Shown here one piece after another: positions 27,393-44,837 of a DNA stretch of 46,799 nt. The position numbers and the translations under genes were made by a program. Position 1 is the stretch's first letter, and each line of letters opens with the position of its first letter. The DNA comes from a virus (Duplodnaviria; Heunggongvirae; Uroviricota; Caudoviricetes), in IMG/VR virus record IMGVR_UViG_2703718778_000015; one strand, written 5' to 3'. The notes below the pieces were generated by a model that was not told the origin of the DNA, ran no database searches, and was given only the letters and a program-made list of their open reading frames with translations.

Positions 27393-29372
27393 TTATGCTG
27401 ATGCCCGGCTTTCGTTAACGTTGACAGTGACCGTATCAAGCAGTACCGGATACGTCGCTTTTGTCCCCGTGATATCTGTCAGCGTCAGCGTATCTGCTGT
27501 AAAGCCATCATTTGTCCACATCACAAGGTCAAATGCCGTCTGCTCTGCACCATCAATCACCGGAACAACTCTTTCGCTGTTATTTCCCGCAAAGCGGAAA
27601 ACAACCGTATGCCAGTTATGGTCAAACGTACCAAATGTACCCAGTTGTGCATTCGAGGAGCCCTTCTGGTGCATCAGATTAAGATTTGATGTATCCGTCT
27701 GAAGGAAGAATGATGCCAGCATACTGTTTGCTGTCGCGCCTGACGCCCACTGCGACACCGGCCAGTAGATACCAAAGACAAACTGTCCGTTCACCAGCTC
27801 GCTTCCATCCGGAATTTTGAACCGTACGGCAATTTCCCCCCCCTTGCTGAGAAGATTTTTTGCCTCCTCCACTGCAATAGTACGGAACATTTTCCAGGAC
27901 GTCAGTTTACCGGGCTGTTTTTCCAGTCGCAGCGCTTTCCGTCCACCGTCATCAGTCACAGTGCCTTTGCCGCCGGAAGCGCCCCACTGCTGCTCTGTCA
28001 ATGCACCATTTCCACTGTTCGCATCATATTCAGCCACCGTCCTGGTACTGCTCACGGCCTCATCATGACCAGTACCAGCAACACCGCCATCCTGCGGTTT
28101 CTCAACATCCGGTGTCCCCGGACTGACAGGCGTTGTACCACCCGACTGCGGTGCGCTCTGCCCGGTAAGGAACGATAATGTCCGCCCGGCGTACTGCAAA
28201 ATGGCACCTGCCAGGCGGTCTGAAACAAGGCCTCTTCGCGCCCATGAACTGAAGTGCGTTTTACGATCGGCTGCCGTCCAGTTACTGGCAGTGCGTGACG
28301 CAGCGCCATAGTATCCCGCCGGGATAATGTCCGGATCTTCTGACGGCTCGTTTGTCGGCACATTCACACCATGCTCATCCGTCATCAACGGCACAAAGTG
28401 AATATTCTGCGCAGCTTTTCCTTTATACCCACCGTAAACCGCCTCATACGGCACTGCATACCTTTCCTTCCAGTAGTACGTGGTATCACCGCAAATCCAC
28501 GGGACGCTGGCCGTTGTCCCGCCAGTACACTGCTCTGCCACATCTGCCAGTTCCGTACGGAACTGATTTACCATGGCAAGGAAAAGCGCATTGTGTTCTG
28601 CATGTCTCCCCGAACTGACATCTTTTTCTCCCTGCATCCAGATCACTGATAACAGCACGTTCTTCGGATTTTTCTTCAGGGCCGCACGGGTTCTGCTGAC
28701 CAGGTCATGATACAGCGGTTTATCCGCCCCCCACAGGGACGAGCCTGCGGTCGCTCCCGACGCTTCGTTAAACGCCCCCTCGGCCCCCGCAGTAAATCCC
28801 GAATCGCCACGGCCACATGGAACAAGAAGGATACCCGCATTCGCAGGCATAAACGGCAGCAGCTTTTTGGCAACATGCAGAGCATGCCCCACACAACCGT
28901 ACTGTCCCTTACTCAGGTCTGCATGAGGATGATTCAGGTTACTCATATCCTGCACATCATGCAGACAGTGGTCTGCCGGAATGATGTCGTTATATTTACA
29001 GGCGGCACCACCCGGCGTCACCGTACTGCGACGCGCCAGCTGTTTAATACGCGGGTCCGGACGGTCATATGTCTCCGGCAGCGGCAGCCCTTCACCAAAA
29101 GACATTGAGTTTGACTGCCCCGCCAGAACAACAACAAAGTAATACTCCGGTTCGCTGGTGGTGCTGATAACTGTGCCTTCTCCATCCGACGGCTTCACCA
29201 CCACAGGTGTGGTGACATCACCTTCCGCCGCAATGGCCTGCATCAGGGTATAAGGCGTGATGGCCACCGGGCTGCCAAATGGCTGCCACCCCTCCTTCAG
29301 TTTTTGAGTCAGTCGCTCCGCAAGGTCTGACGGCGACGCCGCCCTGACCACATCGTAGTGTTTAAATGTCAT
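27393..29372 (-). CDS. nanS-p: Sialate O-acetylesterase NanS-p-like protein (prophage-encoded)
   Basis: 659 aa; recognised as the esterase found between stx and the lysis genes in Stx-type prophages. The family call is from memory of those proteins and of the locus position, not a motif scan. Confidence 0.75.
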   Translation of the reverse strand: MTFKHYDVVRAASPSDLAERLTQKLKEGWQPFGSPVAITPYTLMQAIAAEGDVTTPVVVKPSDGEGTVISTTSEPEYYFVVVLAGQSNSMSFGEGLPLPETYDRPDPRIKQLARRSTVTPGGAACKYNDIIPADHCLHDVQDMSNLNHPHADLSKGQYGCVGHALHVAKKLLPFMPANAGILLVPCGRGDSGFTAGAEGAFNEASGATAGSSLWGADKPLYHDLVSRTRAALKKNPKNVLLSVIWMQGEKDVSSGRHAEHNALFLAMVNQFRTELADVAEQCTGGTTASVPWICGDTTYYWKERYAVPYEAVYGGYKGKAAQNIHFVPLMTDEHGVNVPTNEPSEDPDIIPAGYYGAASRTASNWTAADRKTHFSSWARRGLVSDRLAGAILQYAGRTLSFLTGQSAPQSGGTTPVSPGTPDVEKPQDGGVAGTGHDEAVSSTRTVAEYDANSGNGALTEQQWGASGGKGTVTDDGGRKALRLEKQPGKLTSWKMFRTIAVEEAKNLLSKGGEIAVRFKIPDGSELVNGQFVFGIYWPVSQWASGATANSMLASFFLQTDTSNLNLMHQKGSSNAQLGTFGTFDHNWHTVVFRFAGNNSERVVPVIDGAEQTAFDLVMWTNDGFTADTLTLTDITGTKATYPVLLDTVTVNVNESRASA

Positions 29373-29553
29373 GAATCCTCCCGGTCGGGATAATGTTGTG
29401 AGTCAGATAAGGAGCGAGCTGAAGTCCGGAAGTTACAGGACAATGGCAGGAGGAAGACTACAGCCCGCAATACGAAAAAGGCCGCGCAGTTGCGCAGCCT
29501 TATGAATTCTGGTTAAAATCCATTCGATTATAAAAATGTATATCTCATGCTGT

Positions 29554-29580
29554 TGCCCGAACCCACTCGGGCTTTTTTTT
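29554..29580 (+). terminator. Intrinsic terminator on the plus strand, within a cluster of GC-rich stem-loops
   Basis: gcccgaacccactcgggc followed by T8; the adjacent hairpin gcccctccggagaggggc (about 29595-29612) has a U-rich tail on the minus strand, making the pair bidirectional. Confidence 0.5.
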
Positions 29581-29944
29581 GCCCACAAGAAAGCCCCTCC
29601 GGAGAGGGGCTAAAGCCGCGTATCTGTATCATCATGCACATGGTGCCGGGTGCCTCCCGGTGAGTTCAGCCCGGTGCCACTAAACCCGCGTCATTCTCGT
29701 TTTGATAATCAGAGATTATACCGTCACCAGTCGCCCCTCCGCTCAGGGGGATTCACCATGCCAGTTTCTTTTAACAAACTCCCCGCAAACCAGACAACAG
29801 TCAACCGCCTGAATTGTGAGGTATTTAAAAATTTCAACGGGTAACTGATACCCTGCTAATCGCCTGATGCTTTCTTTTTCAGCAACGGGAAAGCAACAAC
29901 CACCACACCCATCAGCCGCCCATTTACCACAAATAAAAAAGCCT

Positions 29945-30359: not shown

Positions 30360-30932
30360 TTATTGATCAGTTTGCAACATTTTTTTCTCTGTAACAAAAG
30401 CCATACGCATGGGGGCATGTAACATAAATTCAGATATCCCCAACCACTGATCAATTCGGCGTCTGCACGTAACCAACGTCCACTCAGGATGATCTGCATT
30501 TAACCTTTCGGCCATTTTCAGTTTGCTCATTCCCCGTCCTTCGTACCTTTGCCGGAGAATATTGATTAGTCCGGGATATTCCCCAAGCACCTCACTGATA
30601 ACGCGATCAATAATCAACGCCTCTGTGTCTGTACAATGTGACAACCAGCTCTTCTGCTTCCCTCTGGTCATATCCCGAAAAAATGCCTCAAGTTCCGGTT
30701 TTTCCAGCCCGGATTTCTTCATTCTGCGTAAAACCTCATTAACTGCTGTTTTCGTCAGCTTTTTCGAAACCAGTAACCGGTTAAACATATTTCCGGATTT
30801 ACCCCCACCGATATACGACCACCGCCCCCACATCCGTAATTTCCCCTGGATCCAGACTGCTTCCAGCGTGTTCAGACGTAAATGTTCGCCGCTTTTGCCT
30901 GTAATTTCCGGATATATCATATTTACGCTCAC
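30360..30932 (-). CDS. Putative late-gene antiterminator (Q-like), assigned mainly by position
   Basis: 190 aa; sits between rusA and the tR'-like terminator/lysis region; does not resemble lambda Q as remembered, so family membership is unverified. Confidence 0.45.
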   Translation of the reverse strand: MSVNMIYPEITGKSGEHLRLNTLEAVWIQGKLRMWGRWSYIGGGKSGNMFNRLLVSKKLTKTAVNEVLRRMKKSGLEKPELEAFFRDMTRGKQKSWLSHCTDTEALIIDRVISEVLGEYPGLINILRQRYEGRGMSKLKMAERLNADHPEWTLVTCRRRIDQWLGISEFMLHAPMRMAFVTEKKMLQTDQ

Positions 30933-32797: not shown

Positions 32798-32953
32798 TTA
32801 CTCCTCAGGTTCGTAAACTGTGAAGACAGCGACCTCCGTCTGGCCGGTTCGGATTCGTACCTCGCAGAGGTCTTTCCTCGTTACCAGTGCCGTCACTATG
32901 ACGGTTAAACAGATGACGATCAGGGCGATTAACATCGCCTTTTGCTGCTTCAT
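32798..32953 (-). CDS. hok: Hok-family type I toxin (small membrane peptide)
   Basis: 51 aa, MKQQKAMLIALIVICLTVIVTALVTRKDLCEVRIRTGQTEVAVFTVYEPEE, one residue from HokD/RelF as remembered; strong AAGGAGAAG RBS. Confidence 0.9.
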   Translation of the reverse strand: MKQQKAMLIALIVICLTVIVTALVTRKDLCEVRIRTGQTEVAVFTVYEPEE

Positions 32954-33244
32954 AGCCTGCTTCTCCTTGCCTTTCGGCACGTAAGAGGCTAACCTAGATT
33001 TGCCGTTCATAGATTGAGCCTCAGATTAATGTTAAGCGTCTTGCAGGACGCGTAATGTTAACTGGGGCTTTTCTCTATCTGCCTTTTGGTATTCATGCCT
33101 GAGACAGATAGCCTCAAGCACCCGCAGCAATTCTACTTAACTATCCTTTCCCCGCAAATCGTTTTTATCCCCAGCGACAAATCGAATACACCACCAGCGC
33201 CACCGCCATTGCGATCCCTACCGTTGTGAATGCCTCAGGCCAGG

Positions 33245-39286: not shown

Positions 39287-39685
39287 GTGGTGATGATCTT
39301 TGTAAAACGCCTTCAGCAGGTGTTGCAGGAATTGAATATAAACCAGTCAGAGCTGGGAAGACGTCTTGGTGTAAAACCCCAATCCGTGCAAGGTTGGTTG
39401 AAAGGCGTGATGCCAAGAATGGATAAACTGGAAAAATTAGCAGAGCTCTCACAACATCCCGTCCATTGGTTCTTTATGGAAGAAGAAACTCTCGGCGATA
39501 AAATGGCTGTATCCAGTAATGACAACCAACCGCAACTTACAGAACAACAACGAAAAATCATATCGCTTTTAGATGAGTTACCTCAAAGCGACGCAGAGCA
39601 GATCATTCGTGATATGGAGCAAAAACGCGATTTCTATAAACGGAAACTTGAAGAGTTACTGCGGCAGAAAAACAAAACTGCCTGA
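39287..39685 (+). CDS. CI-like prophage repressor (short HTH repressor, RacR-like; no S24 peptidase domain)
   Basis: 132 aa; N-terminal HTH (NINQSELGRRLGVKPQSVQGWLKG), coiled-coil C-terminus; divergent from cro-like gene. Confidence 0.6.
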   Translation: MVMIFVKRLQQVLQELNINQSELGRRLGVKPQSVQGWLKGVMPRMDKLEKLAELSQHPVHWFFMEEETLGDKMAVSSNDNQPQLTEQQRKIISLLDELPQSDAEQIIRDMEQKRDFYKRKLEELLRQKNKTA

Positions 39686-39731: not shown

Positions 39732-40091
39732 TTATAATCCAACCAGGCTTTCCAGGGGGATACCAAATTGATTATGAAGACGGCGAATCATTGGTAACGT
39801 AAGGCTTCTGGTACCATTCAACACCTCATAAACCCGATTTTTTTTCCCAATTGCGGGTTCCAAATCTTTCACAGTCAGCCCCTGCTGTTCCATGCGAAAT
39901 CTTATAGCTTCAATTGGGGATGGTGGCTCAATGGGATAATGTTTTTTTTCATATTCCTCTATTAGCAAACACATCACCTCAAAAAAATCCCCCTCAGGCG
40001 TGTCAATTTCGGGCTCATTGTCGAACATGGGTTCAACAGCACGCAACGCGGCTTCATAATCTTGCTCTGTACGAATAGGTTTGATGTTCAT
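39732..40091 (-). CDS. higA: HigA-like antitoxin (HTH/XRE)
   Basis: 119 aa; HigA-type architecture with C-terminal HTH (GLTVKDLEPAIGKKNRVYEVLNGTRSLTLPMIRRL); immediately downstream of higB with a 2-bp gap. Confidence 0.75.
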   Translation of the reverse strand: MNIKPIRTEQDYEAALRAVEPMFDNEPEIDTPEGDFFEVMCLLIEEYEKKHYPIEPPSPIEAIRFRMEQQGLTVKDLEPAIGKKNRVYEVLNGTRSLTLPMIRRLHNQFGIPLESLVGL

Positions 40092-40093
40092 GC

Positions 40094-40396
40094 TTACTCC
40101 AGTTCGATGGTATCAGCATCAATAGCATCGTATTCCTTGTGGTTTCCGATGAATTTAACAAATACCCATCCTCGCTGATACGCAATTGCAACAATTAAAC
40201 GGTAATGATTACCTTTTATGTTGAATACCACGCGCCGGTTTTTCAATATACTGGCCGTTCGGTATTGTACCTTTATGTCTGCTGGGCTTTTCCAGTCAGC
40301 TTTTGCCGCCTCATCCACCCATGCCCTTAGCGGTTGTTCTGCATCAGGATTCTCCGCCCAAAAATCCCTGAGTGTTTTAACTGAGATAATCTTCAT
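40094..40396 (-). CDS. higB: HigB-like toxin (RelE/ParE superfamily)
   Basis: About 100 aa from Met (MKIISVKTLRDFW...VFNIKGNHYRLIVAIAY...FIGNHKEYD), typical HigB motifs; toxin-first order. Confidence 0.75.
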   Translation of the reverse strand: MKIISVKTLRDFWAENPDAEQPLRAWVDEAAKADWKSPADIKVQYRTASILKNRRVVFNIKGNHYRLIVAIAYQRGWVFVKFIGNHKEYDAIDADTIELE

Positions 40397-40440
40397 AACT
40401 GTATAGTAGTCCCATTTTGGGACTGATGCAACAGCTCGCA

Positions 40441-40495
40441 ATTACAAATTTAATAATAAACATGTTGACCAGTTAAATTTTAATTTGTAAATTGT
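40441..40495 (+). promoter_or_regulatory. OL/pL-like region: sigma70 promoter (TTGACC - 17 bp - TAAATT) flanked by TTACAAAT / ATTTGTAA operator half-sites
   Basis: Direct reading: attacaaatttaataataaacatgTTGACCagttaaattttaatttgTAAATTg; same 8-9-bp motif as in the OR region; the higB promoter must be divergent from the same interval. Confidence 0.55.
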
Positions 40496-40672: not shown

Positions 40673-40828
40673 ATGGATACTATCGATCTTGGCAACAACG
40701 AATCTCTGGTATGTGGCGTGTTCCCCAACCAGGACGGTACGTTCACCGCGATGACGTATACCAAAAGCAAAACGTTTAAAACCGAAAATGGTGCCCGTCG
40801 CTGGCTGGAAAGAAACTCAGGTGAGTGA
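40673..40828 (+). CDS. Hypothetical small protein (51 aa), first gene of early-left operon
   Basis: ATG preceded by GAGGT RBS (MDTIDLGNNESLV...). Confidence 0.4.
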   Translation: MDTIDLGNNESLVCGVFPNQDGTFTAMTYTKSKTFKTENGARRWLERNSGE

Positions 40829-40829
40829 T

Positions 40830-41135
40830 ATGGATTTCGACACAATCATGGAAAAGGCTTACGAAGAATACTTCGAAGGCCTTGCCGAAGGCGAAGAAGC
40901 TCTCAGCTTCAGTGAGTTTAAACAGGCACTCAGAATAAGAATGTGCTCTCACAATGACGCGGAGCACAAATATGAGAAGCAAAATCAGACCGCAGAAAAT
41001 TTTGTTCTGGAACCCGGAGAAACGCTTTTCAAAATTCCCGTTACGTGCCCCATTTGCGGTTTTACATCAGAAGAACTTGACGACTCCTGTAACAATCAGG
41101 AAACAACCAAGTATGTCGAAGATGATACCGAGTGA
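40830..41135 (+). CDS. Hypothetical acidic protein with CxxC zinc-ribbon-like motif (101 aa)
   Basis: ATG overlapping the upstream stop (TGATATG), AGGTGAG RBS; contains CPICG. Confidence 0.4.
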   Translation: MDFDTIMEKAYEEYFEGLAEGEEALSFSEFKQALRIRMCSHNDAEHKYEKQNQTAENFVLEPGETLFKIPVTCPICGFTSEELDDSCNNQETTKYVEDDTE

Positions 41136-41387
41136 GCACGAAGAACGGTTATATCCACGAGCCCAAACTCCAGGACCAATAAATCTCACTTTGAGAGGGT
41201 GGTTAATCCACTCTCCCAAACCAATAAAAAAGATGCCGGAGGACAAAAAACCCAATGGAACAACGGGATATCTGTCGAAAAAAGACGTTCCATTAAAGAC
41301 AAACAACGCAGCGCCAACAACTGTAAGCGCTTTATACCAGTAATCAATTTTCATGTTCTTAAGTGGATTTATTGGTGGTTGCGACAT
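41067..41387 (-). CDS. Putative small membrane protein (possibly superinfection-exclusion SieB-like)
   Basis: Two predicted hydrophobic helices (ALTVVGAALFVF, GIFFIGLGEWI, ...ILGCFLIVTGVV); SieB assignment is by position in the imm-left region only. Confidence 0.35.
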   Translation of the reverse strand: MSQPPINPLKNMKIDYWYKALTVVGAALFVFNGTSFFDRYPVVPLGFLSSGIFFIGLGEWINHPLKVRFIGPGVWARGYNRSSCSLGIIFDILGCFLIVTGVVKFF

Positions 41388-41895
41388 TGCTTAATGAATC
41401 CTTAAAACTGTGGTGATTTTAAGGATACCACCTCGCCTGACGTGGTTAAAAGCAGGCACACAACACGAAAGCGCACGGCGAGGTTTCTGGTTCATAGATG
41501 GCTTGTCGTTAAATTTTCGTCGACCGTGCGCTCCCGGTTGTGGCAATCCGCGAAACGGCGCGGCGGTAAGTATGGCGGGGGTACTCTTCTCCCCCTGTGG
41601 AGCACCGGGTTGTCAGGTTGACCATACGCTTAAGAGACAACCACGCTGCAACGCCCTCTGTTATCCATTTTCTGGTGACGTTTGGCGGTATCAGTTTTAC
41701 TCCGTGACTGCTCTGCCGCCCTTTTTAAAGTGAATTTTGTGATGTGGTGAATGCGGCTGAGCGCACGCGGAACAGTTAAAACCAAAAACAGTGTTATGGG
41801 TGGATTCTCTGTATCCGGCGTTAATTGTTAACTGGTTAACGTCACCTGGAGGCACCAGGCACCGCATCACAAAATTCATTGTTGAGGACGCGATA

Positions 41896-42084
41896 ATGGA
41901 AACGTTATTACCAAACGTTAATACGTCTGAAGGTTGTTTTGAAATTGGTGTCACTATCAGTAACCCTGTATTTACTGAAGATGCCATTAACAAGAGAAAA
42001 CACGAACGGGAGCTATTAAATAAAATATGCATTCTTTCAATGTTGGCCCGTTTACGTCCGATACAAAAAGGATGCTGGCAATGA
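41896..42084 (+). CDS. Hypothetical small protein (62 aa)
   Basis: ATG with GAGGA RBS (METLLPNVNTSEG...); followed by a 15-codon hydrophobic mini-ORF with stop/start overlap. Confidence 0.3.
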   Translation: METLLPNVNTSEGCFEIGVTISNPVFTEDAINKRKHERELLNKICILSMLARLRPIQKGCWQ

Positions 42085-42365
42085 ATACAGCATTTGCACT
42101 TGTTCTGACAGTTTTTCTTGTTTCCTGAGAGCCAGTTGATATTGCAGTCAGTGTTCACAGGACAATGCAGGAGTGTGTGACTGCAGCAACCGAACAGAAA
42201 ATTCCCGGTAACTGTTACCCGGTCGATAAAGTTATTCACCAGGATAATATCGAAATCCCGGCAGGTCTTTAAAACAGTTCCGTAATAAACATCCGATTTC
42301 ATTCTTATATGCCAGCAATGGCAGGGATTTGTTCATCCTTAAATCTGTCATGAGGTTAAAACAAA

Positions 42366-44837
42366 ATGAGTAAAGTCTTTATTTGCGCCGCTATTCCTGA
42401 CGAACTGGCAACAAGGGAAGAAGGCGCTGTGGCTGTAGCCACAGCCATTGAAGCTGGCGACGAACGCCGTGCTCGAGCAAAATTTCACTGGCAGTTCCTG
42501 GAACATTATCCGGCTGCTCAGGACTGCGCTTATAAATTTATTGTCTGCGAGGATAAACCTGGCATACCCCGCCCTGCCCTCGATTCATGGGATGCTGAAT
42601 ATATGCAGGAAAACCGCTGGGATGAGGAGTCTGCTTCTTTTGTCCCGGTTGAGACTGAATCCGATCCGATGAACGTCACTTTTGACAACCTAGCCCCTGA
42701 AGTACAGAACGCTGTCATGGTTAAGTTCGACACATGTGAAAACATCACTGTTGATATGGTGATTAGCGCACAGGAATTGTTGCAGGAAGACATGGCAACA
42801 TTCGACGGCCATATCGTTGAAGCGTTGATGAAAATGCCAGAAGTTAACGCTATGTATCCGGAGCTTAAGCTGCATGCCATCGGGTGGGTTAAGCATAAAT
42901 GTAAGCCTGGTGCCAAATGGCCCGAAATTCAGGCAGAGATGCGCATCTGGAAAAAACGTCGCGAAGGTGAACGCAAGGAAGCCGGAAAATACACGTCTGT
43001 TGTTGATCTCGCCCGCGCCAGAGCCAATCAACAGCACACTGAAAATTCAACAGGAAAAATCAGCCCGGTCATTGCTGCCACTCATCGCGAATACAAGCAG
43101 ACATGGAAAACACTGGATGACGAACTGGCCTACGCTCTCTGGCCTGGTGATGTGGATGCCGGAAACATTGACGGCAGCATCCATCGCTGGGCAAAAAATG
43201 AAGTTATCGACAACGACCGCGAAGACTGGAAGCGTATCTCGGCATCAATGCGCAAACAGCCTGATGCCCTTCGCTACGACCGCCAGACTATTTTTGGCCT
43301 TGTCCGTGAACGTCCGATCGACATTCACAAAGACCCTGTGGCACTGAACAAATACATTACTGAATACCTGACTACAAAGGGCGTGTTTGAAGATGAAGGA
43401 ACAAATCAGAGCGCAACTGATACTCTCTCGTCGCCAGTACCAGAAACTGATGCAGTGGAAACGGCAATTCCGGACAACGAAAAAACCGAATGCAAAGTGG
43501 AAGTCGAACCATCTGTAGAGCGTGAAGGGCCGTTCTACTTCCTCTTCACCGACAAGGATGGCGAAAAATACGGTCGCGCAAACAAACTTTCTGGTCTGGA
43601 TAAGGCACTGGCTGCAGGGGCTACTGAAATCACGAAAGAAGAATATTTCGGCCGCAAAAACGGTACATACTCAGGTTCACAACAAAATACTTGTGCATCT
43701 GACACGACCGCACAACCTGGGCCGGTAAAAGTTACCGCTGACGAAGTAAACAAAATTATGCAGGCAGCCAATATCAGCCAGCCTGACGCCGATGAACTGC
43801 TTGCAGTATCACGTGGTGAATTTGTTGCAGGGATTAGCGATCCGAATGATCCGAAATGGGTGAAGGGGATTGAAACCCGCGATTCTGTGAACCAGAACCA
43901 GCAAGAAACGGAACAGAACGACCAGAAAGCGGAACAAAACAGCCAAAATACGCAACAAAACGAGCCAGAAACGAAACAACCTGAACCAGTAGTGCAACAG
44001 GAACCGGAAAAGATCTGCACCGCCTGCGGTCAAAGCGGTGGCGGCAACTGCCCTGATTGTGGTGCAGTGATGGGCGACGCAACATACCAGGAAACATTCG
44101 ATGACAAGAACCAGGTTGAAGTTCAGGAAGACGATTCGGAGAAAATGGAAGGCGCTGAACATCCACACAAGCAGAATGCTGGCAGCGCTCTGGGTCACGC
44201 CAGCGATAGTGAAACTGGCGAGACGGCAGATCCCTTAATTACGGTGAACGGTCATCACGTTATCATATCCACCAGCAGGACGTGTGACCATCTAATGATC
44301 GACCTTGAAACCATGGGAAAAAATCCTGATGCCCCGATTATCTCAATAGGTGCAATATTTTTCGATCCGCAAACCGGAGATATGGGACCGGAATTTAGTA
44401 AGACTATCGATCTGGAAACTGCTGGCGGAGTCATTGATCGGGACACCATTAAATGGTGGCTTAAGCAATCACGCGAAGCGCAATCAGCCATTCTGACCGA
44501 TGAAATCCCGTTGGATGACGCACTGTTGCAATTACGGGAATTTATCGACGAAAACTCCGGTGAATTTTTTGTTCAGGTCTGGGGAAATGGAGCCAACTTT
44601 GACAACGTAATTTTACGCCGTTCATATGAACGGCAGAGGATCCCCTGCCCATGGCGTTACACCAATGATCGCGATGTAAGAACGATGGTTGCTCTGGGAC
44701 TGGTGATGGATTTCGATGCTCGAAGTGTCATCACATTTGAGGGTGAGCGCCATAATGCCCTGCACGATGCGCGTTACCAGGCAAAATACGTTTCAGCTAT
44801 CTGGCAAAAACTGATCCCGAGTCAGGCTGATTTTTAA
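42366..44837 (+). CDS. Large early protein with C-terminal DnaQ-like (DEDDh) 3'-5' exonuclease domain
   Basis: 823 aa; C-terminal motifs Exo I (MIDLETMG), Exo II (VWGNGANFDNVIL) and Exo III (HNALHDARYQAKY); upstream CxxC-x10-CxxC zinc ribbon (CTACGQSGGGNCPDCG) and a Q/E-rich low-complexity stretch. Confidence 0.75.
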   Translation: MSKVFICAAIPDELATREEGAVAVATAIEAGDERRARAKFHWQFLEHYPAAQDCAYKFIVCEDKPGIPRPALDSWDAEYMQENRWDEESASFVPVETESDPMNVTFDNLAPEVQNAVMVKFDTCENITVDMVISAQELLQEDMATFDGHIVEALMKMPEVNAMYPELKLHAIGWVKHKCKPGAKWPEIQAEMRIWKKRREGERKEAGKYTSVVDLARARANQQHTENSTGKISPVIAATHREYKQTWKTLDDELAYALWPGDVDAGNIDGSIHRWAKNEVIDNDREDWKRISASMRKQPDALRYDRQTIFGLVRERPIDIHKDPVALNKYITEYLTTKGVFEDEGTNQSATDTLSSPVPETDAVETAIPDNEKTECKVEVEPSVEREGPFYFLFTDKDGEKYGRANKLSGLDKALAAGATEITKEEYFGRKNGTYSGSQQNTCASDTTAQPGPVKVTADEVNKIMQAANISQPDADELLAVSRGEFVAGISDPNDPKWVKGIETRDSVNQNQQETEQNDQKAEQNSQNTQQNEPETKQPEPVVQQEPEKICTACGQSGGGNCPDCGAVMGDATYQETFDDKNQVEVQEDDSEKMEGAEHPHKQNAGSALGHASDSETGETADPLITVNGHHVIISTSRTCDHLMIDLETMGKNPDAPIISIGAIFFDPQTGDMGPEFSKTIDLETAGGVIDRDTIKWWLKQSREAQSAILTDEIPLDDALLQLREFIDENSGEFFVQVWGNGANFDNVILRRSYERQRIPCPWRYTNDRDVRTMVALGLVMDFDARSVITFEGERHNALHDARYQAKYVSAIWQKLIPSQADF

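What the first reader, a model, noticed from the sequence alone, without database searches (positions are those of the whole stretch)
41400..42365. Structured non-coding interval with mini-ORFs between the early-left small genes and the exonuclease gene
This kilobase has no convincing long ORF (the 201-aa minus-strand ORF is Cys-rich and composition-odd) but contains a GC-rich hairpin (gggggtactcttctccccc) and several RBS-preceded mini-ORFs: a 62-aa ORF, a 15-codon hydrophobic peptide (MNTAFALVLTVFLVS) overlapping its stop, and a 35-codon ORF. No N-like antiterminator gene is evident. This is where kil/cIII/nutL-like small functions lie in lambda.
Basis: seen in the sequence. Interest (0 to 1): 0.35.

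Follow-up and report, generated by a model that had tools for sequence, protein, structure and literature searches.

The report
Known DicF–DicB–YdfD prophage locus

Summary
It is collinear with, and about 96% identical to, the dicF–dicB–ydfD segment of E. coli K-12 prophage Qin.

- **DicF:** Rfam finds the DicF sRNA at 41670-41721 (76.7 bits).
- **62-aa ORF:** this is an intact DicB (Pfam E 1.7e-37).
- **15-codon peptide and 35-codon ORF:** these are the two halves of ydfD, the lysis-protein gene. An in-frame TGA replaces Gly16. The allele occurs in 9 of 5,426 complete E. coli genomes, against 3,830 with GGA. RefSeq marks it "internal stop".
- **Long ORFs:** the 201-aa antisense ORF and the 107-aa plus-strand ORF are not conserved and are spurious.
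it lies in the untranslated DicF precursor and is only modestly supported.
- **The real structure:** the 174-nt dicF–dicB spacer folds with z = -5.5. Of its 37 base pairs, 24 show compensatory changes across Enterobacteriaceae. Its closing helix holds the published RNase III cut that gives 72-nt DicF. It is a below-threshold relative of Rfam STnc100 and also precedes kil and terB/tciA genes.

Verdict: already known, low interest. The spacer domain is a modest extra.

The parts
41448..41668 (+). Untranslated leader of the DicF precursor, conserved with K-12 Qin and phage Tritos
   Evidence: Homology with Qin and Tritos starts at about 41448. Positions 41521-41668 are 94-100% conserved in 102 unique relatives. 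The 107-aa ORF across it is open only in this window (1 of 102). Published work shows a 190-nt DicF precursor whose 5' end is made by RNase III (PMC10448788).
41470..41532 (+). Leader stem-loop with conserved arms (41470-41481 and 41520-41532) and a hypervariable tip; candidate RNase III site for the 190-nt DicF form
   Evidence: Predicted in the minimum-energy fold. The arms are conserved while 41481-41520 varies and is replaced by different sequences in different lineages. Counting 190 nt back from 41721 gives about 41532. No compensatory changes were seen, so this is an inference.
41577..41595 (+).
   Evidence: Sequence. Relatives keep GGGG...CCCC with length variation, and some variants break it. 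One divergent lineage has CUGGGG...CUCCAG, a single compensatory G-C to U-A change. No T-run follows, so it is not an intrinsic terminator.
41669..41721 (+). DicF small RNA (53 nt), identical to K-12 DicF
   Evidence: Rfam RF00039 matches 41670-41721 at 76.7 bits (gathering score 48), E 2.6e-15. It aligns without a mismatch to dicF b1574 as annotated in K-12.
41684..41726 (+). DicF 3' stem-loop (GGCGG 41684-41688 / CCGCC 41716-41720) plus UUUUU 41722-41726: Rho-independent terminator
   Evidence: Structure line of the Rfam alignment and sequence. Termination here is reported to give the 53-nt form (PMC5069750).
41722..41895 (+). Structured dicF-dicB spacer, an STnc100-like RNA domain. Helices: H1 41734-41749/41860-41875 (extends to 41728/41880 in the single-sequence fold); H2 41753-41757/41763-41768; H3 41769-41771/41814-41816 enclosing a variable hairpin; H4 41817-41826/41834-41843; H5 41845-41849/41855-41859
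   Evidence: MFE -70.4 kcal/mol against -46.8 +/- 4.3 for shuffles, z = -5.5. Alignment A4: 97.9% of cells paired, 11 pairs with changes on both sides against 3.1 +/- 1.3 (0/500). Alignment A5: 94% paired, 24 of 37 pairs with changes on both sides against 11.4 +/- 1.8 (0/500) and 6-14 when slid. Rfam STnc100 scores 38.7 bits, below the gathering score of 47. Helix coordinates.
41740..41741 (+). Inferred position of the published RNase III cut that gives 72-nt DicF, inside the 5' strand of helix H1
   Evidence: The 72-nt form is reported in PMC5069750. 41669 + 71 = 41740. The position is arithmetic on a published length, not mapped here.
41884..41888 (+). dicB Shine-Dalgarno (GAGGA), predicted to pair with CCUU 41720-41723 at the foot of the extended helix
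   Evidence: Single-sequence folds of this window, K-12 Qin and L016. Rac-type leaders pair their own GGAG with the same CCGCCCUUUUU strand in another register. Prediction only.
41896..42084 (+). dicB, cell-division inhibitor, 62 aa, intact
   Evidence: Pfam PF05358 DicB, E 1.7e-37, full length. Annotated as dicB in 100%-identical RefSeq genomes. The protein is identical to the second commonest variant among relatives.
42081..42272 (+). ydfD (DUF1482, lysis protein) pseudogene. Its start overlaps the dicB stop (ATGA). In-frame TGA at 42126-42128 replaces Gly16
   Evidence: With TGA read as Gly, Pfam PF07358 gives E 9e-26. K-12 and Tritos have GGA. RefSeq notes 'internal stop'. The TGA allele occurs in 9 of 5,426 genomes and GGA in 3,830. 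Gly is kept in nearly all relatives, including divergent YdfD variants.
42165..42272 (+). [quoted passage not shown]
   Evidence: In frame with 42081. The domain boundary at residue 29, and the requirement for an intact protein for lysis, are from PMC8835842.
42310..42333 (+). Weak terminator-like hairpin (TGCCAGCAATGGCA) followed by GGGATTTGTT, between ydfD and the exonuclease gene
   Evidence: It is the only terminator-like consensus match in the region, and the count of such matches is no higher than chance. The stretch is about 94% conserved. Function not tested.
42366..44837 (+). 823-aa exonuclease gene bounding the interval; counterpart of the truncated ydfE of K-12
   Evidence: Pfam PF16473 Rv2179c-like 3'-5' exoribonuclease domain, E 6.7e-65, residues 642-813. 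Annotated 'exonuclease' in RefSeq. K-12 has the ydfE pseudogene in this position.
41398..41426 (.). Perfect 10-bp inverted repeat (ATCCTTAAAA n9 TTTTAAGGAT) just upstream of the start of the reversed 106-aa gene, at the junction with the Qin-like module
   Evidence: Kept in the 10 relatives that carry the same insert. Function unknown.

Best explanation
The interval is the dicF-dicB-ydfD stretch of the repressor-controlled early-left operon of a Qin/mEp460-like lambdoid prophage.

Established for K-12 Qin, and carried over here by roughly 96% collinear identity:
- Transcription enters from the promoter near the repressor gene and crosses an untranslated leader.
- Most transcripts stop at the DicF terminator.
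- RNase III makes a 190-nt precursor, and RNase E then makes the 53-nt DicF. DicF pairs with ftsZ and other mRNAs.

Shown here:
- Transcripts that read through the terminator enter a 174-nt spacer.
- The spacer folds into a conserved multi-helix domain closed by a 16-22 bp helix.

Inferred:
- That helix is the RNase III substrate whose cleavage gives the published 72-nt DicF.
- The foot of the helix masks the dicB ribosome-binding site.
- RNase III processing therefore separates the sRNA from the dicB message and tunes how much of the toxic DicB is made.

dicB is intact. ydfD, which is translationally coupled to dicB by an ATGA overlap, is inactivated by a G-to-T nonsense mutation at codon 16.
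For: - **Identity:** Rfam DicF 76.7 bits. Pfam DicB E 1.7e-37 and DUF1482 E 9e-26. Collinear alignment with K-12 Qin and phage Tritos, with mean column identity of 94%. The same annotation appears in 100%-identical RefSeq genomes, including 'internal stop' for ydfD. K-12 gene order is ydfC-dicF-dicB-ydfD-ydfE.
- **Nonsense allele:** TGA in 9 genomes, GGA in 3,830. It occurs in 1 of 102 unique viral-contig relatives, this window's own sequence.
- **Spurious ORFs:**
- **Spacer structure:** z = -5.5. Covariation. G-U pairs are kept on the plus strand only.
- **Processing:** 190-nt, 53-nt and 72-nt DicF forms and the RNase III/E dependence are reported in PMC10448788 and PMC5069750. The 72-nt end maps by arithmetic to 41740, inside helix H1.
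- **Ribosome-binding-site masking:** predicted in both Qin-type and Rac-type leaders, with different 3' sequences pairing to the same 5' strand.
Against: - No expression data exist for this strain.
- The RNase III positions are derived from published RNA lengths in K-12, not mapped here.
- Masking of the ribosome-binding site rests on energy predictions, partly through weak U-G and U-A pairs. P7 and D6 copies, which lack the upstream terminator, show no such pairing.
- The leader upstream of DicF shows no compensatory changes, so its hairpins are unproven.
- The invariant 22-nt motif and invariant loops in the spacer suggest a specific partner that simple RNase III processing does not explain.
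Confidence: 0.9

Rival explanations
1. The 15-aa hydrophobic peptide and the 35-aa ORF are genuine, separately evolved small-protein genes. For example, the first could be a membrane toxin.
For: Both ORFs are present. The first starts at the normal ydfD start, coupled to dicB. The second starts at Met29, the start of the YdfD C-terminal domain.
Against: The two are in one frame and together match DUF1482 end to end. The interrupting TGA is a single G-to-T change from the Gly codon found in 3,830 genomes, against 9 with TGA, and Gly is kept in nearly all relatives, including divergent YdfD variants. RefSeq treats the gene as a pseudogene. Even short terminal deletions (1-5 residues from either end) let cells survive ydfD induction, and the C-terminal domain alone kills far less well than the intact protein (PMC8835842).
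Confidence: 0.04
2. ydfD is not dead but attenuated. Low-level readthrough of the TGA, or reinitiation at Met29, yields a little full-length or C-terminal YdfD, giving a weakened lysis function that is tolerated in a lysogen.
For: TGA is the leakiest stop codon in E. coli (general knowledge, not tested here). The rest of the reading frame is intact and identical to functional alleles. The allele is shared by 9 genomes from pig, human and wildebeest hosts.
Against: There is no recoding signal and no evidence of selection for the allele. Other sporadic nonsense alleles of ydfD also occur, as expected for random decay of a toxic gene.
Confidence: 0.1
3. The conserved dicF-dicB spacer acts as DNA, as a promoter or operator for dicB/kil, rather than as RNA.
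For: One older study proposed a promoter upstream of dicB (cited in PMC10448788). The spacer holds palindromic GTTAAC motifs and blocks that are 100% conserved.
Against: No sigma-70-like match lies on the plus strand in the spacer. Primer extension in K-12 found no internal promoter (PMC10448788). Stems vary through compensatory changes and G-U pairs that only make sense on the plus-strand RNA, while loops stay fixed.
Confidence: 0.07
4. The spacer is a cis-acting processive antitermination RNA (nutL-like or put-like) that substitutes for the missing N function.
For: No N-like gene is present. The element is a conserved structured RNA early in a long operon that must read through terminators to reach the exonuclease, xis and int genes.
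Against: It lies downstream of the DicF terminator, so it cannot help RNA polymerase pass that terminator. No boxA-like sequence occurs above chance. A paralogue sits in the Q-controlled late operon (29581-29790), and other copies sit in P7 and D6 in front of terB. These settings do not suggest a pL-specific antiterminator.
Confidence: 0.06
5. After RNase III cuts both strands of the closing helix, the ~125-nt core is released as a stable trans-acting RNA, as its relatives STnc100 and PasD are thought to be.
For: Sub-threshold but consistent Rfam STnc100 matches in every context. The loops and a 22-nt motif are invariant. STnc100 and PasD are treated as Hfq-associated sRNAs (bioRxiv 10.64898/2026.05.13.724894).
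Against: The spacer lacks the 3' terminator and U-tail that STnc100 has. No RNA of this size has been reported from the dicBF operon in the Northern blots read here.
Confidence: 0.15

Closest known systems
dicBF operon of cryptic prophage Qin, E. coli K-12 (ydfABC-dicF-dicB-ydfD-ydfE)
   Same: From 41448 on, the order, spacing and sequence match: identical DicF, the same 174-nt spacer, DicB 62 aa (55 of 62 residues identical), ydfD overlapping the dicB stop, and an exonuclease gene downstream.
   Different: ydfD carries a nonsense codon. The exonuclease gene is full length (823 aa), whereas K-12 ydfE is cut by IS2. ydfB/ydfC are replaced by a 115-aa ORF and a reversed 106-aa membrane-protein gene. 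A HigB/HTH toxin-antitoxin pair lies between the repressor gene and the ydfA-like gene.
kilS-kilR region of prophage Rac (K-12) and kil regions of Stx phages such as 75/02
   Same: Same layout: a terminator-type sRNA (KilS, which matches the DicF model at 39.1 bits), then the same structured spacer of about 165 nt, then a small division inhibitor, then an exonuclease gene. A reversed membrane-protein gene (sieB) lies just upstream, as the 106-aa gene does here.
   Different: The inhibitor is Kil, not DicB. The sRNA has a different 5' part. The ribosome-binding site pairs with the terminator strand in a different register.
Rfam RF02076 STnc100 (and its relative PasD), prophage sRNAs of Enterobacteriaceae
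   Same: A closing helix plus internal hairpins in the same order. Shared motifs are GGUGAAU..CUGAGCG and CACC(U/G)GGAGGCACC(A/C)GGCACC, with compensatory differences between them. A full copy lies in this same window at 29581-29790.
   Different: The score is below the family threshold (38.7 against 47 bits). There is no 3' terminator. It sits as a 5' leader directly in front of a coding gene rather than as a terminated transcript.
Lambda early-left region (N leader RNase III site, cIII, kil)
   Same: An analogous position in a pL-type operon, a small division inhibitor, and an RNase III-sensitive structure in front of a dosage-sensitive gene. This rests on established knowledge of lambda and was not tested here.
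   Different: No sequence or family relationship was found. There is no N, no nut-like boxA and no cIII. The Rfam scan of the interval gave no Lambda_thermo match.
Leader of terB/tciA-tciB in P1-like phages P7 and D6
   Same: The core of the same structured domain (window 41743-41866) lies about 40 nt upstream of the first gene of a cluster annotated as 'inhibition of cell division or resistance to colicin'.
   Different: It follows tRNA genes instead of a DicF-type terminator. The closing helix has a different sequence, through compensatory changes. No pairing with the ribosome-binding site is predicted.

Membership tests
DicF RNA (Rfam RF00039) | Covariance-model score at or above the curated gathering score | tested here: met
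   76.7 bits against 48, full model 1-52, at 41670-41721.
DicF RNA (Rfam RF00039) | Single-stranded 5' targeting region identical to that of the characterised K-12 DicF | tested here: met
   No mismatch to K-12 dicF across the whole RNA.
DicF RNA (Rfam RF00039) | 3' stem-loop followed by a U-run (Rho-independent terminator) | tested here: met
   GGCGG...CCGCC at 41684-41720, then UUUUU at 41722-41726.
DicF RNA (Rfam RF00039) | [quoted passage not shown] | not testable with these tools
   Known for K-12 only (PMC10448788; PMC5069750).
DicB (Pfam PF05358) | Full-length profile match above the gathering score, intact ORF of about 62 aa directly downstream of dicF | tested here: met
   127.4 bits against 27, residues 1-62 of 62. 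Position confirmed.
DicB (Pfam PF05358) | MinC-dependent inhibition of division | not testable with these tools
   Literature for K-12 DicB. 7 of 62 residues differ here.
YdfD / DUF1482 (Pfam PF07358) | Profile match above the gathering score | tested here: met
   90 bits against 25 when codon 16 is read as Gly.
YdfD / DUF1482 (Pfam PF07358) | Uninterrupted 63-codon reading frame (an intact protein is needed for lysis) | tested here: not met
   TGA at 42126-42128. RefSeq 'internal stop'. Requirement for an intact protein from PMC8835842. It is therefore a pseudogene of this family, not a functional member.
STnc100 (Rfam RF02076) | Covariance-model score at or above the gathering score | tested here: not met
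   38.7 bits against 47 for 41719-41928. Copies in P7, D6, Kp4865-4 and 75/02 score 33-43 bits.
STnc100 (Rfam RF02076) | Closing helix enclosing several hairpins, supported by covariation | tested here: met
   The window's own full STnc100 copy fits the same consensus in alignment A5.
STnc100 (Rfam RF02076) | 3' intrinsic terminator that ends the transcript | tested here: not met
   The terminator segment of the model is missing. The dicB start codon lies there instead.
Lambda-type N/nutL antitermination module | N-like protein gene next to the repressor, and a boxA-boxB site in the early-left leader | tested here: not met
   The ORFs next to the repressor match DUF1391, HigB, HTH or nothing. 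Near matches to boxA number 25 against 26.6 expected, and none lies in a nut-like setting. This is a weak test, because N proteins are poorly conserved.

The most novel reading that the evidence does not exclude
The dicF-dicB spacer may belong to a widespread, so far uncurated class of modular cis-regulatory RNA leaders related to STnc100/PasD. Phages of Enterobacteriaceae place these leaders directly in front of toxic host-takeover genes (dicB, kil, terB/tciA and others). The stems covary while a 22-nt motif (GGUGAAUGCGGCUNNGCGCACG) and two loops stay invariant. That pattern would mean the element binds a specific partner (a protein, an RNA or a ligand) and gates translation, rather than being only an RNase III processing hairpin.
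Probability: 0.3. Interest if true: 0.55.

Novelty: already known. Interest (0 to 1): 0.2.

Why it matters
For the scan, this removes a false lead. The 'mini-ORFs' are DicB and a broken ydfD, and the 'non-coding' kilobase is one of the oldest known prophage sRNA loci.

Two small points have wider use. First, ydfD decays sporadically (9 of about 3,840 genomes carry this particular stop) while dicF, the spacer and dicB stay intact. This fits selection for the division and phage-exclusion functions but not for the lysis gene. Second, the dicF-dicB spacer is more conserved than the neighbouring coding sequence and has clear covariation. It recurs in front of kil and terB/tciA genes in Escherichia, Citrobacter, Klebsiella, Raoultella and Enterobacter. 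It would be a reasonable addition to RNA family databases and a testable handle on how prophages keep toxic early genes quiet.

Tried and rejected
- **Covariation in the leader upstream of DicF (41448-41726, 33 representatives):** no pair changed on both sides. The consensus fold even competed with the DicF terminator, so nothing can be concluded.
- **Mini-ORF from the invariant AUG at 41751 (MRLSARGTVK...):** its length ranges from 12 to 45 aa and the C-terminus is not conserved across families, so it was rejected as a gene.
- **201-aa antisense ORF and 107-aa plus-strand ORF:** not kept open in relatives and no Pfam match.
- **Promoter and terminator scan of 41300-42450:** nothing above chance. 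The simple scan does not even find the DicF terminator because of its long interrupted stem.
- **BoxA-like search:** chance level.
- **PADLOC:** no match for DicB, YdfD, the 106-aa protein or the 115-aa protein.
- **Rfam at permissive thresholds on the interval:** only DicF and the sub-threshold STnc100 match, plus noise.
- **Literature that could not be read:** Faubladier and Bouché 1994 (PMC205167) is not held. The supplement of the RNase III cleavage map is not held. Exact cleavage coordinates could therefore not be checked.
- **'Positions 813/814' for the RNase III site in PMC10448788:** this uses a numbering I could not map. I used the published RNA lengths instead.
Full report
**1. What is in the sequence**

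- The GC hairpin GGGGG/tactcttct/CCCCC lies at 41577-41595.
- The 62-aa ORF is 41896-42084.
- The 15-codon ORF MNTAFALVLTVFLVS is 42081-42125 and ends in TGA at 42126-42128.
- The 35-codon ORF is 42165-42272.
- The 201-aa minus-strand ORF is 41697-42302.

The 15-codon ORF starts with an ATG that overlaps the stop of the 62-aa ORF (ATGA). The 35-codon ORF is in the same frame as the 15-codon ORF.

**2. Identity of the interval**

A scan of the window against Rfam finds the DicF sRNA at 41670-41721. It scores 76.7 bits against a gathering score of 48 and covers the full model.

The interval matches thousands of E. coli genomes. In eight RefSeq genomes it is 100% identical, and the features under the match are dicB, a 'DUF1482 family protein' and an exonuclease gene. 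In one of these genomes the DUF1482 gene is flagged as a pseudogene with an 'internal stop'.

Phage Tritos and K-12 prophage Qin carry the same order: (ydfC) - dicF - dicB - ydfD - exonuclease/ydfE. A three-way alignment is collinear from window position 41448 to the exonuclease start, with mean column identity of 94%. DicF is identical to the K-12 RNA.

Pfam confirms the two protein genes.
- The 62-aa ORF is DicB, with E 1.7e-37 over the full length.
- The 15-codon and 35-codon pieces, joined with Gly in place of the TGA, match DUF1482/YdfD with E 9e-26.

**3. The broken ydfD**

K-12 and Tritos have GGA where the window has TGA.

| Data set | TGA allele | GGA allele |
|---|---|---|
| 102 unique relatives from viral contigs | 1, this window's own sequence | most; Gly is kept in nearly all, even in divergent YdfD variants |
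| 5,426 complete E. coli genomes, allele-specific 55-mers | 9 genomes | 3,830 genomes |

A few other sporadic nonsense alleles of ydfD also occur among the viral-contig relatives.

YdfD is a characterised lysis protein that inhibits IspG. It has an N-terminal domain (residues 1-28) and a C-terminal domain (residues 29-63). Even short deletions of 1-5 residues from either end let cells survive its induction, so the intact protein is needed for lysis (PMC8835842).

The two 'mini-ORFs' are therefore fragments of a recently inactivated gene. Residual activity through readthrough or reinitiation cannot be excluded, but nothing supports it.

**4. The long ORFs**

Both long ORFs are artefacts.
- The 201-aa ORF antisense to dicB-ydfD is open in only 22 of 102 relatives.
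- The 107-aa plus-strand ORF that runs through the leader and DicF is open in this window alone.
- Neither has a Pfam match.

**5. The leader upstream of DicF (41448-41668)**

This stretch is untranslated and highly conserved. Positions 41521-41668 are 94-100% conserved, more than the coding sequence of dicB's C-terminus or ydfD.

In K-12, DicF is cut out of the operon transcript. RNase III makes the 5' end of a 190-nt species and RNase E makes the 5' end of the 53-nt RNA (PMC10448788).

Counting 190 nt back from 41721 gives about 41532. That is the 3' foot of a predicted stem with arms at 41470-41481 and 41520-41532. The arms are conserved, while the tip (41481-41520) is replaced by unrelated sequences in different lineages. 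This fits an RNase III hairpin. I found no compensatory changes in the leader, and the region as a whole does not fold unusually well (z = -1.18), so the assignment remains an inference.

Relatives keep GGGG...CCCC, and one lineage shows a single compensatory change. Some variants break the hairpin, and it is not followed by a T-run. It is real but minor.

**6. The dicF-dicB spacer (41722-41895) is the truly structured element**

It folds at -70.4 kcal/mol, against -46.8 +/- 4.3 for shuffled sequences (z = -5.5). Rfam's STnc100 model matches it below threshold (38.7 bits, gathering score 47, E about 1e-6 in that search). A full STnc100 copy lies elsewhere in the window at 29581-29790.

The same module of about 165 nt (window 41716-41880) occurs in several other settings.
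- Between the sRNA KilS and kilR in K-12 Rac.
- Upstream of kil in Rac-SA53, Stx phage 75/02 and others.
- Upstream of terB/tciA-tciB in the P1-like phages P7 and D6.
- In a Klebsiella phage.

KilS itself aligns to the terminator half of DicF and matches the DicF model at 39.1 bits.

A scan of one genome per species with the invariant motif GGTGAATGCGGCTNNGCGCACG found copies in Escherichia, Shigella, Citrobacter, Klebsiella, Raoultella, Enterobacter and Pseudescherichia. A few metagenome bins of unrelated taxa also gave hits, which are probably mis-binned contigs. The copies lie in front of dicB, kil, a TerB-like gene and other ORFs.

The structure is supported by covariation in two alignments.

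| Measure | A4: 28 sequences | A5: 26 sequences, more divergent, with the window's STnc100 copy |
|---|---|---|
| Predicted base pairs | 38 | 37 |
| Cells that form a standard pair | 97.9% | 94% (shuffled 83.9%; slid controls 31-45%) |
| Pairs with changes on both sides | 11 (shuffled 3.1 +/- 1.3; 0 of 500 reach it; slid 0-2) | 24 (shuffled 11.4 +/- 1.8; 0 of 500; slid 6-14) |
| Cells with changes on both sides | 24 (shuffled 3.7 +/- 1.6) | 86 (shuffled 20.8 +/- 4.0) |

G-U pairs occur on the plus strand, which points to an RNA read in the sense of the operon. The stems vary. A 22-nt motif and the loops AGGCA and UUGUUAACUGG hardly vary at all.

In window coordinates the helices are:
- H1: 41734-41749 with 41860-41875
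- H2: 41753-41757 with 41763-41768
- H3: 41769-41771 with 41814-41816, enclosing a variable hairpin
- H4: 41817-41826 with 41834-41843
- H5: 41845-41849 with 41855-41859

**7. How the spacer most likely works**

In K-12, RNase III processing of read-through transcripts gives a 72-nt DicF (PMC5069750). 41669 + 71 = 41740, which lies inside the 5' strand of H1. H1 is a 16-bp helix in the consensus and reaches about 21-22 bp in the single-sequence fold. H1 is therefore the obvious RNase III substrate.

In single-sequence folds of Qin-type leaders, the strand CCGCCCUUUUU pairs with GAGG..GCG, which includes the dicB ribosome-binding site at 41884-41888. This strand is the descending arm of the DicF terminator plus its U-run. 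In Rac-type leaders the same strand pairs with AAAAAUGG.A.G, which includes the kil ribosome-binding site, in a different register.

I therefore propose the following.
- Transcripts that escape the terminator carry a masked ribosome-binding site.
- RNase III cleavage in H1 separates DicF from the dicB message and sets DicB output.

The cleavage is published. The helix is shown here. The masking and its effect are inferred. P7 and D6 copies, which have no upstream terminator, show no such pairing, so masking cannot be the whole function of the domain.

**8. Alternatives for the spacer**

- A DNA promoter or operator is unlikely. There is no plus-strand promoter-like match, no internal promoter was found in K-12 primer extension, and the covariation pattern is RNA-type.
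- A leader peptide from the invariant AUG at 41751 is unlikely. Its length ranges from 12 to 45 aa and the tail is not conserved.
- A nut-like or put-like antiterminator is unlikely, given its position after the terminator, the absence of boxA above chance and its other genomic settings.
- A released trans-acting core RNA, like STnc100 and PasD, remains possible.

**9. Surroundings**

The module joins non-Qin sequence at about 41421-41448.

Just upstream lies a reversed gene for a 106-aa protein (41067-41387, minus strand) with three hydrophobic segments by my reading. It has no Pfam, PHROG or PADLOC match. It does have homologues of the same length at 34-58% identity, including proteins named from Yersinia, Herminiimonas and Reinekea. 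In three other prophages a 58%-identical homologue sits between the repressor gene and the early-left genes, again in reverse orientation. This is the position and orientation of sieB in Rac-type phages.

A perfect 10-bp inverted repeat (41398-41426) lies just upstream of its start.

**10. Verdict**

The locus is already known. The only addition is that the spacer is a covarying, widely reused relative of STnc100 that current Rfam thresholds do not capture.

Noticed in passing
window 41067-41387 (minus strand): A reversed 106-aa ORF with three hydrophobic segments sits inside the early-left operon, where sieB sits in Rac-type phages. It has no Pfam, PHROG or PADLOC match. It has same-length homologues at 34-58% identity, including proteins named from Yersinia, Herminiimonas and Reinekea. 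A 58%-identical homologue occupies the same reversed slot between the repressor gene and the early-left genes in three other prophages. It is a candidate lysogen-expressed exclusion gene.
   Followed up: partly
window 41398-41426: A perfect 10-bp inverted repeat (ATCCTTAAAA n9 TTTTAAGGAT) lies just upstream of the start of that reversed gene. It is conserved in the 10 relatives with the same insert. It could be an operator or an RNA hairpin; this is untested.
   Followed up: partly
window 40788-41135 (plus strand): A 115-aa ORF matches only positions 1-115 of a 205-residue PHROG (phrog_35040). In phage HannyBb a 205-aa plus-strand ORF is annotated across the region that holds the reversed 106-aa gene here. 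One of the two overlapping readings must be wrong. The wide distribution of the 106-aa family favours the reversed gene.
   Followed up: partly
window 29525-29790: A full STnc100 copy (29581-29790, minus strand, 152 bits) abuts an AsxR match (29525-29577, plus strand, 63 bits, exactly at its threshold). They lie between a Q-type antiterminator gene (30360-30932, minus; DUF1133 and Phage_antitermQ) and a 659-aa sialate O-acetylesterase-like gene (27393-29372, minus). No stx genes lie between them.
   Followed up: partly
window 32798-33123 (minus strand): A hok/sok type I toxin-antitoxin locus: sok RNA at 112 bits and a Hok/Gef ORF with Pfam E 6.4e-22.
   Followed up: no
window 39732-40441 (minus strand): A HigB-toxin gene (Pfam E 2.1e-32) and an HTH_3 partner gene are inserted, in reverse orientation, between the repressor-like gene (39287-39685) and the DUF1391 (ydfA-like) gene. 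A genome that is 100% identical across dicF-dicB-ydfD carries relB/relE in that slot instead. This slot next to the repressor swaps toxin-antitoxin cassettes.
   Followed up: partly
L128 1906-2003 (K-12 Rac, kilS) compared with window 41669-41726: The K-12 sRNA KilS aligns with the terminator half of DicF and matches the DicF covariance model below threshold (39.1 against 48 bits). DicF and KilS appear to be diverged versions of one terminator-sRNA module with different 5' parts.
   Followed up: partly
window 41558-41576 compared with 41684-41721: The leader contains GGCGCGGCGGUAAGUAUGG, which resembles the 5' arm of the DicF terminator (GGCGGUAUCAG). In the consensus fold it pairs with the terminator's 3' arm. 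This could be an alternative, anti-terminator-like pairing. There is no covariation to support it.
   Followed up: no
Aeromonas phage AP1 (MT713136) and Actinobacillus phage vB_Apl-pPE4 (PP818812): Records of phages attributed to non-enterobacterial hosts carry stretches 87-98% identical to this E. coli module. The Actinobacillus phage record has a whole Rac-like early region. This suggests contamination or mis-assigned hosts in those records.
   Followed up: no
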